Shown: positions 19,601 to 21,005, numbered from the stretch's first letter. The stretch: 64,000 nucleotides of DNA from an uncultured Odoribacter sp. (GCA_934725835.1 CAKVCR010000001.1:4276-68275), one strand, 5' to 3'. Notes: generated by a model from the letters alone, not told the origin. Translations and numbers: made by a program.

Positions 19601-19675
19601 GTGTTTTTTAAAAGTTTTTCGTGAGGTCTGGATCATGTGAGGTTGTAGCATGTAGATTTTACCGCCACTATACCA

Positions 19676-19860
19676 GTATATCTATACACTATATCTAGTA
19701 CATACATACAAGATATATAGATACATATATACAATATATAGTATAGTAATATAGATAATAGATAGTAGATATATAGTATATATAATATAATAATATAACT
19801 ATAACATTAGAGATATAAAGAGAATATAAAATAGTTAAATATTAAAGTATAGGTATATAA
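19676..19860. repeat. TA-rich low-complexity block (ATATAG/TATAGT-type units)
   Basis: About 185 bp almost devoid of G/C runs, built from degenerate TATAG/ATATA/GATA units. No ORF. Confidence 0.8.
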
Positions 19861-20069
19861 TATTTATTCAATCTATTCAAGATAAATATATTATTGTGTA
19901 TTTTATATTCTAAATTTCGCCCCACTCCGTCAACACAAAAACAGATCACAATATTTTTATAGCTGAATTTGTAGCCGTTGCATGAAAAAGAGAAAAAGCA
20001 GCAAGGAAAAGCAGGGAAAAGGGGATAAATTTTAATAGTCAAGCCTTTTTCTAAATTTTTTCTTTTGCT

Positions 20070-20633
20070 TCCGAACTCTGTAATTCTTCCGGCTTCCGAT
20101 TTTTCCGGGTTTCACTGGCAATTTTTCCGGGCGATTTCTGGCGATAAAATCCGGGTTTTGTGTGCTGATCCTTGCGAATATTACTTAACCTCAAAAAGTA
20201 ATATTCAACGGGTAGCCTAAAAACCGCTATTAGTGCCGTTTTCAGTCAATTATTTTATGTCAGAACGTACCAGGGGGGGTATATTTACATTTTCGCAGTG
20301 ATTATCGAACACTTGTTCTGGTGTCGGGGGTTATCTCAGTCTACCCCCTCTTTTCCCCTCTCCGAACTCGTAACCAACCTCGACAACTTTAGCTCCCTTT
20401 GCTGATTTCCGACTTTTTCACTATTATAAAAATATTCAATTTTAAGCCTATAATAGTGATATAATCCTTTGAAATCCCCATAAATCAAGGTTTCTTCCGA
20501 ACTGATTAAAAATGTGGCTTTTACCTATCATTTTTGCCCCATAGATTCAAGAACCAACCAAAAAGAAAATTATGCCAAAATAAGCTATTTATCGGCGTTC
20601 CAGCTCTTTTCGACCTCGATGCTCTACCGAACT
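20070..20633 (+). repeat. four direct copies of a CTYYCCGAACTC box
   Basis: TCCGAACT at 20070, 20361 and 20496, and ACCGAACT at 20626. All have the same orientation and CT-rich 5' flanks, inside a non-coding region. Confidence 0.7.
20087..20155 (+). repeat. iteron-like TTCCGG(G) repeats
   Basis: TTCCGG at 20087 and CCGGG at 20105, 20127 and 20151 (22-24 bp spacing). Two tandem units TTTCaCTGGCaATTTTTCCGGG / aTTTCTGGCGATAAAATCCGGG. Confidence 0.6.
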
Positions 20634-20705
20634 CACCAAAAAGTGCAATCTGAAGACCGAATCTCCGTTATGTTATGGCGAAAATTAAAAATTAAATATG
20701 TCCCA

Positions 20706-20818
20706 TAATTGTCTATACTAACGTATAGCCAATTATATAAATATTTATATATCTCTTTATTATTTATATATAATATAATAATAATATAAATATATATAAT
20801 ATATATAAATATAAATAA
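20706..20818. repeat. TA-rich low-complexity block (right)
   Basis: ATATAA/TATATA units with almost no G/C. It mirrors the 19676-19860 block on the other side of the non-coding region. Confidence 0.8.
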
Positions 20819-20876
20819 CGCCACGATTTAAGTTTTTCTTTGTTGGTTGGTTTTTATAATTAAACCATAATAAATG

Positions 20877-20904
20877 TTGACAATATTTGAATTAGTGGTA
20901 TAAT
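20877..20904 (+). promoter_or_regulatory. sigma-A-type promoter with extended -10 (rightward arm)
   Basis: TTGACA (20877-20882), 16 nt, TGgTATAAT (-10 at 20899-20904). Confidence 0.7.
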
Positions 20905-21005
20905 CAGTGTAGGAACGAATATAGTTGGATTTTGTGGAGAAAAGGATTGATCCAATTATTTTCGTTTTCTATAATCAGACAATAATAAATGGAGAACACA
21001 GTAAT

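What the first reader, a model, noticed from the sequence alone, without database searches (positions are those of the whole stretch)
19640..20920. 1.25-kb non-coding divergent region with twin TA-only blocks, iteron-like repeats and four CCGAACT boxes: candidate origin or unknown RNA locus
Seen: no credible ORF lies between the outermost leftward promoter (19572-19600) and the first rightward promoter (20877-20904). The region is bracketed by two almost pure TA blocks (19676-19860 and 20706-20818). Its more GC-rich interior carries TTCCGG(G) repeats at 22-24 bp spacing (20087-20155), four same-orientation CTYYCCGAACTC boxes (20070, 20361, 20496, 20626), and G7/C5 runs that can pair (20272-20280 with 20342-20348). 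Inference: iterons flanked by easily melted DNA suggest a replication origin. Alternatively it could be a packaging or terminal-repeat region, or a structured non-coding RNA gene. The arrangement does not match a system I can name.
Basis: partly seen in the sequence, partly recalled or inferred. Interest (0 to 1): 0.6.

Follow-up and report, generated by a model that had tools for sequence, protein, structure and literature searches.

The report
SPbeta-type packaging and control hub
This gene-free 1.5-kb stretch is where the two gene arms of a large uncultured human-gut phage diverge; it corresponds to the gap where Bacillus phage SPbeta starts packaging its DNA and shares a 16-base signal with it, so it is more likely a packaging-start and promoter hub than a classical replication origin or an RNA gene.

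Summary
No conserved ORF lies in 19530-21005, between outward sigma-70-type promoters. Four same-strand CCGAACT boxes cluster far beyond chance. The right TA block is the only stretch of at least 95% A+T (60-nt window) in a 164-kb sister genome.

The phage is SPbeta-like. It has a YonO-type RNA polymerase, and a terminase 46% identical to SPbeta YonF. SPbeta has the same about 1-kb divergent gap (yonP/yonR), which holds its mapped pac / genome-opening point.

The window carries GGGGGTATATTTACAT (20275-20290). The identical 16-mer lies inside the published 250-bp SPbeta pac fragment. It is single-copy per genome, in the same orientation, and is followed in every relative by a G-poor, C-rich tract with same-strand boxes. 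Overall sequence similarity to SPbeta is otherwise not significant.

No conserved RNA fold exists beyond three DNA palindromes, and there is no Rfam hit. The right TA block and an invariant 32-nt palindrome form a separable module of unknown role, possibly an origin or a promoter element.

Many assemblies break inside the TA block, but at scattered positions, so this is an assembly artefact and not a fixed end.

Best reading: an SPbeta-type pac and control hub (about 0.5). A replication origin remains a live rival (about 0.25). Interest is moderate to low.

The parts
19572..19600 (-). Outermost leftward sigma-70-type promoter (TTGACA-17-TAATAT, TG) driving the left (early) arm
   Evidence: conserved in clade A relatives even where the first leftward gene differs
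19676..19860 (.). Left TA-rich block (84% A+T, TACA/TAGA-type degenerate repeats); present only in clade A
   Evidence: absent in clades B and C
19985..20030 (+). Purine-rich GAAAAG/GGGAAAA tract. The feature is kept in clades A-C, but its length and sequence vary.
20066..20077 (+). Box 1 (CTTCCGAACTC), 204 nt left of the G5 motif; conserved in position in clades B and C as CCGAACA
20087..20155 (+). TTCCGG/TTCCGA repeat zone. If SPbeta geometry holds, the packaging cut would fall here, about 180-200 nt left of the motif (inference).
   Evidence: for the repeats; for the SPbeta opening point 198 nt upstream of the motif; the sequence alignment itself is not significant
20176..20206 (.). Conserved hairpin or inverted repeat: 11-bp stem GAATATTACTT/AAGTAATATTC with a 9-nt loop. 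One pair covaries, A-T to G-C, with G.T and A.C intermediates.
20275..20290 (+). GGGGGTATATTTACAT (consensus GGGGG-N4-TTTACAT). Single copy per genome and identical in SPbeta and BUCT082, where it lies inside the mapped 250-bp pac fragment.
20291..20700 (+). G-poor, C-rich tract. It holds boxes 2-4 (CCGAACT at 20362, 20497, 20627), the inverted repeat TCGGGGG/ACCTCGA (20324-20330 / 20377-20383), ACCAACCA (20553-20560) and CTATTTATCGGCGTT (20585-20599).
20705..20736 (.). 32-nt imperfect palindrome (ATAATTG-T-CTATAC-TAAC-GTATAG-C-CAATTAT). Invariant in clades A-C and, from T20709 on, in 22 gut metagenome contigs. Its core is single-copy per genome.
20731..20818 (.). Right TA-only block (63-nt pure A/T run at 20756-20818). 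It is the easiest-to-melt DNA of the genome and a frequent assembly break point.
   Evidence: contig ends
20877..20904 (+). Consensus rightward promoter (TTGACA-16-TATAAT, TG). A second promoter-like site lies at 20947-20975. Together they drive gene 21006-21395, gene 21400-21651 and the YonO-like RNA polymerase gene 21648-24467.

Best explanation
The region is the central non-coding hub of an SPbeta-like phage of about 165 kb from human-gut Firmicutes. All genes to its left run leftward and all genes to its right run rightward.

It is the counterpart of the SPbeta yonP-yonR gap. Its interior, about 20070-20700, is most likely the packaging-initiation (pac) region.

Proposed mechanism (inferred):
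- The terminase recognises the single-copy GGGGG-N4-TTTACAT motif and the same-strand CCGAAC boxes. One box lies about 200 nt left of the motif and three lie in the G-poor tract to its right.
- It makes the first cut roughly 0.1-0.2 kb left of the motif, in the TTCCGR repeat and hairpin zone.
- Headful packaging then runs rightward, towards the RNA polymerase, terminase and structural genes, as mapped in SPbeta.

The outward sigma-70-type promoters at both edges make the same region the start point of the two transcription arms.

The invariant 32-nt palindrome and the right TA-only block form a separate module tied to the rightward promoter. Its role is open; it could be a promoter or operator element or a DNA-unwinding element of an origin.

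Shown here: the synteny, the terminase and RNA polymerase relatedness, the identity and single-copy status of the motif, the layout and composition parallels, and the absence of a conserved ORF or RNA fold.

Inferred: that the motif and boxes are terminase sites, and where the cut falls.
For: 1. The phage is SPbeta-like.
- The terminase (32773-34524) is 45.7% identical over 96% of its length to SPbeta YonF.
- The 939-aa protein at 21648-24467 is a YonO-type RNA polymerase (PF05183), 34% identical to that of Spbetavirus BUCT082.
- Gene order from gap to small gene(s) to RNA polymerase to terminase is the same as in SPbeta.

2. SPbeta has the same divergent gap, 952 bp between yonP and yonR.
- Restriction mapping and read mapping place the pac / genome-opening point there (bioRxiv 10.1101/2021.11.22.469490; PMC8270828).
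- The supplement prints the 250-bp pac fragment and states that packaging runs towards yonP/yonO.
- The linear BUCT082 record begins exactly at that opening point.

3. The 16-mer GGGGGTATATTTACAT at 20275-20290 is identical in SPbeta and BUCT082 and lies inside that fragment, 198 nt from the opening point.
- It is single-copy in each of four genomes of 125-171 kb.
- A GGGGG-N-TA-N-TTTACAT scan of IMG/VR also recovered seven contigs that carry a YonO homologue. In all seven the motif is upstream of that gene and on the same strand.

4. The layout is shared.
- The 330 nt after the motif are G-poor (5-15% G) and C-rich (19-36% C) in all 13 loci examined.
- SPbeta and BUCT082 have one TACGAT box at -171 and three at +236 to +350 relative to the motif. 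The window has CCGAACT at -204 and at +87, +222 and +352.
- Hairpins lie upstream of the motif in most loci.

5. The hub is conserved as non-coding DNA in three clades whose RNA polymerases are 71% identical, with the motifs in the same order.

6. Sister strains carry a 0.6-0.9-kb leftward gene cassette between box 4 and the palindrome. The pac-like module and the palindrome/TA/promoter module are therefore separable.
Against: - Apart from the 16-mer, the window hub and the SPbeta gap do not align better than locally shuffled controls (z 1.3). The homology therefore rests on position, one motif and layout.
- Nobody has shown that the motif is the pac signal in SPbeta.
- The motif is absent from Staphylococcus PhiSepi-HH3 and Mammaliicoccus phi6255, whose terminases are 39% identical to the window's.
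- It is also absent upstream of the RNA polymerase gene in several closer relatives by that gene. Its link to terminase type is only a trend: carriers are 37-46% identical plus one at 28%, and non-carriers are 29-39%.
- Phage PMBT24 shares the twin-TA hub architecture, yet PhageTerm placed its pac 8.8 kb away (PMC11035940).
- No read data exist here for this phage. No contig among those examined ends at the predicted cut; the observed contig ends fall in the TA block.
Confidence: 0.5

Rival explanations
1. The hub, especially the palindrome and the right TA block, is the lytic replication origin. An initiator would bind the palindrome or the CCGAAC/TCCGR boxes. The TA block would melt, helped by the negative supercoiling that builds up between the two strong divergent promoters. 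Forks would then leave in both directions, co-oriented with transcription. This can coexist with a pac function.
For: - The hub is the single divergence point of all genes, and cumulative GC skew has its global minimum there.
- The right TA block is the only window of at least 95% A+T in 164 kb.
- The adjacent 32-nt palindrome is invariant and its core is single-copy.
- Short boxes are repeated on one strand only.
- Enterocloster phages PMBT24 and CB473P1 have an analogous hub with TA blocks and a long palindrome showing two compensatory changes, although the PMBT24 pac maps elsewhere.
- The origin of SPbeta is unmapped, so nothing contradicts this reading.
Against: - GC skew is fully confounded with gene orientation.
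- The boxes are too short and too widely spaced to be iterons, and the TCCGG copies are poorly conserved.
- There is no DnaA-box cluster.
- No recognisable initiator, helicase loader or primase gene flanks the hub.
- The left TA block is clade-specific.
- Other SPbeta-like phages with the motif have no TA block at all.
Confidence: 0.25
2. The hub is a pure transcription-control region. It would consist of two strong divergent early promoters with long A+T-rich upstream elements or supercoil buffers, plus operator sites (the palindrome, the boxes, the hairpin) for phage regulators that time the early-to-middle switch. On this reading it has no role in packaging or replication.
For: - Consensus promoters sit at both edges.
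- The palindrome, TA block and promoter stay together as a unit when a cassette is inserted to their left.
- An ATAATAAATG element recurs beside the -35 hexamers here and at other promoter-like sites of the contig.
Against: - About 0.85 kb of conserved interior is far more than known divergent promoter and operator regions need (my own knowledge).
- The palindrome centre lies 157 nt from the -35 hexamer.
- The 16-mer shared with the SPbeta pac fragment is not a sigma-A promoter on either strand by inspection, and the YonO start site in SPbeta lies elsewhere (PMC5467207).
Confidence: 0.15
3. The interior encodes one or more structured non-coding RNAs, in the manner of the large phage RNAs GOLLD and ROOL or a leader RNA.
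For: - The minus strand of 19900-20740 folds somewhat better than shuffles (z -3.1, from only 20 shuffles).
- The region is conserved without coding.
Against: - No Rfam family matches above noise.
- RNAalifold finds only 64 pairs and -39.6 kcal/mol over 1025 columns.
- Sliding-window alignment folding against column shuffles is significant only where the three DNA palindromes lie, and there on both strands. It is about zero elsewhere.
- The only internal extended -10 site is mutated in close relatives.
Confidence: 0.05
4. The right TA block is a fixed physical genome end, such as a cos site or a terminal-repeat boundary.
For: - Six IMG/VR contigs and 10 of 22 metagenome contigs stop in the right TA block.
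- The record of Enterocloster phage CB473P1 starts and ends inside its own right TA block.
Against: - The stops are scattered 2-127 nt into the block, which is typical of assembly failure in low-complexity, extremely A+T-rich DNA.
- Four contigs of 162-171 kb read straight through it.
- Relatives are headful, circularly permuted packagers.
Confidence: 0.03

Closest known systems
pac / genome-opening region of Bacillus phage SPbeta and relatives (phi3T, Goe11-14, BUCT082), in the yonP-yonR gap
   Same: - About 1 kb of non-coding DNA between divergent arms, next to small gene(s) and the YonO RNA polymerase gene.
- A YonF-type terminase lies downstream.
- The single-copy 16-mer GGGGGTATATTTACAT is identical and in the same orientation.
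- A G-poor tract with same-strand boxes follows the motif, and hairpins lie upstream of it.
   Different: - There is no significant similarity outside the 16-mer.
- The box sequence differs: CCGAACT here, TTACGAT in SPbeta.
- This phage adds a pure-TA block and an invariant 32-nt palindrome that SPbeta lacks.
- Physical ends have not been mapped here.
- The host is a human-gut Firmicute, not Bacillus. The genome is about 165 kb and carries 21 tRNA genes.
SPP1 pac (pacL-pacC-pacR) and lambda cosN/cosB (own knowledge of these systems)
   Same: The working model is the same: small-terminase binding boxes arranged around or downstream of a cut site, with easily bent or A+T-rich DNA, and one-directional packaging away from the cut.
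   Different: There is no sequence similarity; the SPbeta review also reports none to SPP1 pac. The scale is larger, about 0.6 kb against about 0.27 kb. Protein binding has not been tested.
Divergent hub of Enterocloster phages PMBT24 and CB473P1
   Same: Outward consensus promoters, twin TA-only blocks and an interior with a long palindrome, immediately upstream of a YonO-like RNA polymerase gene.
   Different: There is no sequence similarity and no G5 motif. The interior is only about 0.3 kb. PhageTerm mapped the PMBT24 pac 8.8 kb away.
Iteron-type or transcription-activated phage origins (lambda ori, T4 oriF/oriG, lactococcal c2 ori; own knowledge)
   Same: A non-coding region between divergent transcription units, with an A+T-rich segment that melts easily and short repeats.
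   Different: There are no 17-22-bp phased iterons, no adjacent initiator gene and no DnaA boxes. Origin activity is untested.

Membership tests
SPbeta-type pac / genome-opening region | Lies in the non-coding gap between the divergent early and late arms, directly upstream of the small gene(s) and the yonO operon | tested here: met
   The hub spans 19530-21005, followed by two small genes and the YonO homologue at 21648-24467. SPbeta has a 952-bp yonP-yonR gap next to yonO.
SPbeta-type pac / genome-opening region | The phage packages with a YonF-type large terminase | tested here: met
   45.7% identity over 96% of the protein to SPbeta YonF, E 1e-161
SPbeta-type pac / genome-opening region | Sequence similarity to the mapped 250-bp pac fragment | tested here: inconclusive
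   A 16-of-16 identical single-copy motif lies inside the fragment. The rest of the region aligns no better than shuffled controls (z 1.3).
SPbeta-type pac / genome-opening region | Virion DNA ends or a coverage step map to the site, with packaging towards the late genes | not testable with these tools
   No reads are available. The contig ends seen fall in the TA block at scattered positions.
Iteron-type replication origin | An array of at least three direct repeats of about 17-22 bp in helical phase | tested here: not met
   The boxes are 7-12 nt long and 130-290 nt apart. The TCCGG copies are 16, 22 and 24 nt apart and poorly conserved.
Iteron-type replication origin | An adjacent A+T-rich DNA-unwinding element | tested here: met
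   The right TA block is the only 60-nt window of at least 95% A+T in the genome
Iteron-type replication origin | An initiator gene overlapping or flanking the repeats, or host DnaA boxes | tested here: not met
   The flanking proteins have no Pfam or PHROG replication hits. Only one DnaA box with one mismatch is present, and it lies outside the interior.
Large structured phage RNA (GOLLD, ROOL and similar) | A covariance-model match, or a conserved fold supported by covariation | tested here: not met
   No Rfam match with E below 0.04, and none near a gathering score. Consensus folding is weak and limited to palindromes.

The most novel reading that the evidence does not exclude
GGGGG-N4-TTTACAT, with its G-poor box tract, is the long-sought pac recognition signal of SPbeta-like phages, conserved from Bacillus to human-gut Clostridia. 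The adjacent invariant palindrome and pure-TA block are the lytic origin of this gut phage group. On this reading, packaging start, replication start and both early promoters are concentrated in one 1.5-kb hub.
Probability: 0.2. Interest if true: 0.5.

Novelty: new variant of a known kind. Interest (0 to 1): 0.35.

Why it matters
SPbeta is a long-used model phage, yet its pac signal and its origin are still undefined at the sequence level. A 16-nt motif inside its mapped pac fragment recurs, single-copy and in the same place, in very distant uncultured gut phages. This gives a concrete, testable candidate for the packaging signal. SPbeta is genetically tractable, so the motif can be deleted or moved there.

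For metagenomics, the finding also explains why contigs of this abundant group of gut phages so often break at one spot: the pure-TA block.

It would not change how phage hubs are understood. The region is a variant of a known arrangement.

Tried and rejected
- Nucleotide search of the hub against 50,697 phage records found no match.
- An Rfam scan gave only noise.
- Decayed genes: apparent ORFs in relatives (L012, 130 aa and 62 aa) are low-complexity, and tblastn found no similarity to the window interior. The window's own small ORFs are not conserved.
- Large structured RNA: rejected after alignment folding with column-shuffle controls.
- CCGAACT boxes as promoters of the phage RNA polymerase: rejected. 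The boxes are confined to the hub, and the YonO start site in SPbeta lies upstream of yonK.
- G5 motif as a sigma-A promoter: by inspection, no -10/-35 partner at proper spacing on either strand in the window, SPbeta or clade B.
- DnaA-dependent origin: no box cluster.
- Fixed end in the TA block: the contig ends are scattered.
- Alignment of the TTCCGR zone with the SPbeta opening-point sequence looked plausible by eye, but the global alignment is not significant. It is kept only as a positional prediction.
- Clean co-variation of motif presence with terminase similarity: two staphylococcal-type phages with 39% terminase identity lack the motif.
- Pfam gave nothing for the two inserted ORFs in L005 or for the small flanking genes.
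- The internal extended -10 at 20457-20465 is mutated in close relatives.

Full report
**What is there.** The window is part of a 77.5-kb, 35.5% G+C contig binned with a 3.2-Mb metagenome-assembled genome. It is a phage.
- It carries 21 tRNA genes, a large terminase, and a 939-aa protein of the YonO / two-barrel RNA polymerase family.
- Positions 19530-21005 lie between a leftward gene (19236-19529) and a rightward gene (21006-21395).
- A 12-of-12 consensus promoter points right at 20877-20904. A good promoter points left at 19600-19572.
- In a 164-kb sister contig that CheckV rates 95% complete, almost every long ORF left of this region is on the minus strand and almost every one to its right is on the plus strand. 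Cumulative GC skew has its minimum here. The region is therefore the single divergence hub of the genome.

**Checking the observation.** The listed features are real.
- The four CCGAACT boxes are all on one strand within 560 nt. Only two other copies occur in the 64-kb window, and 13 occur in 2 x 164 kb of the sister genome.
- TCCGR occurs 9 times on the plus strand of the interior and never on the minus strand.
- The right TA block holds a 63-nt pure A/T run. It is the only 60-nt window of at least 95% A+T in the whole sister genome.
- The left block is only 84% A+T and is missing from sister clades. The 'twin' arrangement is therefore not a conserved property.
- The small ORFs in the region are interrupted in near-identical relatives or have no conserved peptide.

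**Relatives.** IMG/VR and human-gut metagenomes hold three clades with this hub. Clade A is the window's type. Clades B and C have RNA polymerases 71% identical to the window's.
- The hub stays non-coding in all three and keeps the same order of short motifs, separated by variable sequence and indels.
- Invariant or nearly invariant elements are:
  - an 11-bp-stem hairpin at 20176-20206, with one covarying pair;
  - the G run followed by TTTACAT at 20273-20290;
  - a 7-nt inverted repeat at 20324/20377;
  - ACCAACCA;
  - TTATTTATCGGCGTT;
  - box 4;
  - a 32-nt palindrome at 20705-20736 that abuts the TA block.
- Within clade A the hub is only 87-93% identical, although the neighbouring polymerase gene is 99-100% identical.
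- Three clade A strains carry a 0.6-0.9-kb leftward cassette of two paralogous small ORFs, with its own terminator-like hairpin, inserted between box 4 and the palindrome.

**Not an RNA gene.**
- Rfam gives nothing.
- RNAalifold on a 12-sequence, three-clade alignment finds 64 pairs and -39.6 kcal/mol over 1025 columns.
- Sliding-window consensus folding was compared with column shuffles. It is significant only where the hairpin, the 7-nt inverted repeat and the palindrome lie, and there on both strands. Elsewhere the consensus energy is about zero. These are DNA-level symmetries.
- The single-sequence z-score of -3.1 for the minus strand is not backed by conservation.

**The link to SPbeta.** A note from an earlier agent of this scan about other SPbeta-like hubs prompted a direct test.
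- The terminase is 45.7% identical to SPbeta YonF.
- SPbeta has the same layout: a 952-bp gap between yonP (followed by yonO) and the divergent yonR.
- The literature places the SPbeta pac site / genome-opening point in exactly this gap, by restriction mapping and by read mapping of four isolates. It states that the replication origin of SPbeta has not been studied.
- The supplement of Kohm et al. prints the 250-bp pac fragment and says that packaging starts at its yonR-side end and proceeds towards yonP/yonO.
- The linear GenBank record of BUCT082 starts at precisely that base.
- Inside the fragment, 198 nt from the opening point, lies GGGGGTATATTTACAT. This is the same 16-mer as window 20275-20290, in the same orientation relative to the polymerase and terminase genes.
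- The motif is single-copy in the sister genomes of clades A and B, in SPbeta and in BUCT082.
- A scan of IMG/VR with GGGGG-N-TA-N-TTTACAT gave many chance hits. It also recovered seven contigs that encode a YonO homologue of 21-37% identity. In all seven the motif is upstream of that gene and on its strand.

**Shared layout beyond the motif.**
- In all 13 loci examined, the 330 nt after the motif are G-poor (5-15% G) and C-rich (19-36% C).
- SPbeta and BUCT082 have one TACGAT box 171 nt before the motif and three at 236-350 nt after it. The window has CCGAACT 204 nt before it and at 87, 222 and 352 nt after it. Clade B has TACCGA at -193, +203 and +330.
- Hairpins lie 12-180 nt upstream of the motif in most loci.

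**Limits of the homology.**
- A semi-global alignment of the window hub with the SPbeta gap scores no better than locally shuffled controls (z 1.3). The claim rests on position, one motif, composition and box layout.
- The motif is not universal. It is absent from two staphylococcal-type SPbeta-like phages (terminase 39% identical), from CB473P1 and from two complete-genome-scale IMG/VR relatives. A one-mismatch search of PMBT24 gave only one hit, inside a gene.
- It is also absent from the 6 kb upstream of the polymerase gene in relatives with 33-39% polymerase identity.
- Motif carriers tend to have the more similar terminases: 37-46% identical, with one at 28%. Non-carriers are 29-39% identical. 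This is a trend in a small, phylogenetically dependent sample.

**The TA block and the palindrome.**
- This module occurs only in clades A-C.
- It stays attached to the rightward promoter when the cassette is inserted to its left.
- Enterocloster phages PMBT24 and CB473P1 also have a YonO-like polymerase gene beside a divergent hub. They show an analogous arrangement with no sequence similarity: TA block, short interior with a 17-bp-stem palindrome, second TA block.
- Their palindrome shows two compensatory changes between the two phages (my reading).
- In PMBT24, PhageTerm placed pac 8.8 kb away.
- This suggests that the TA/palindrome module has a role other than packaging. An origin unwinding element or a promoter or operator device are both possible and cannot be separated here.

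**Contig ends.**
- Six IMG/VR contigs, 10 of 22 metagenome contigs and the CB473P1 record end in the TA block.
- The ends are scattered over 2-127 nt, and four 162-171-kb contigs read through it.
- This is assembly failure in extreme low-complexity DNA, not a physical terminus.

**Verdict.**
- The most likely reading is an SPbeta-type packaging-start and promoter hub (about 0.5).
- The predicted first cut lies roughly at 20040-20200, with packaging running rightward.
- A replication origin in the palindrome/TA module is the main rival (about 0.25) and could coexist with pac.
- The structured-RNA and fixed-terminus readings are unlikely.
- The finding is a new variant of a known, poorly characterised arrangement. 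Its most useful product is a concrete candidate pac motif that can be tested in SPbeta.

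Noticed in passing
window 21648-24467: A YonO-type single-chain RNA polymerase (PF05183 hit; 34% identical to that of Bacillus phage BUCT082). In Enterocloster phage CB473P1 the homologous gene is annotated as three separate ORFs. In BUCT083 a GIY-YIG nuclease gene sits between two YonO pieces, which suggests introns or homing elements in this gene family.
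   Followed up: partly
window 27379-31686: An array of 21 tRNA genes. A beta-CASP / metallo-beta-lactamase (RNase J-like) gene at 30117-31559 lies inside the array, before the last tRNA-Leu.
   Followed up: no
L005:4306-4944 (also L011, L017): A 0.6-0.9-kb leftward cassette is inserted in the hub of some clade A strains, right after box 4. It holds two paralogous small ORFs (106 and 98 aa, no Pfam hit) and a terminator-like hairpin. The window lacks it.
   Followed up: partly
window 19585-19594, 20866-20876, 20981-20991; G000:C1:373-405 and 15883-15921: An ATAATAAATG-containing element recurs next to -35 hexamers or in 5' leaders of several promoter-like sites of the contig. It may be a shared regulator site of the early promoters.
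   Followed up: no
window 20549-20569 and 20835-20855: A 21-nt inverted repeat (81% complementary; ACCAACCAAAAAG / CTTTGTTGGTTGG) brackets the palindrome and the TA block. It is only partly kept in clade B.
   Followed up: partly
window 2812-5796 (-): A 994-aa fusion protein with an N6 DNA methylase domain and DEAD/ResIII helicase domains in the left arm.
   Followed up: no
window 20731-20818 and equivalents in relatives: Nearly half of the public contigs that reach the palindrome stop inside the pure-TA block. It is a systematic assembly break point for this group of gut phages.
   Followed up: yes
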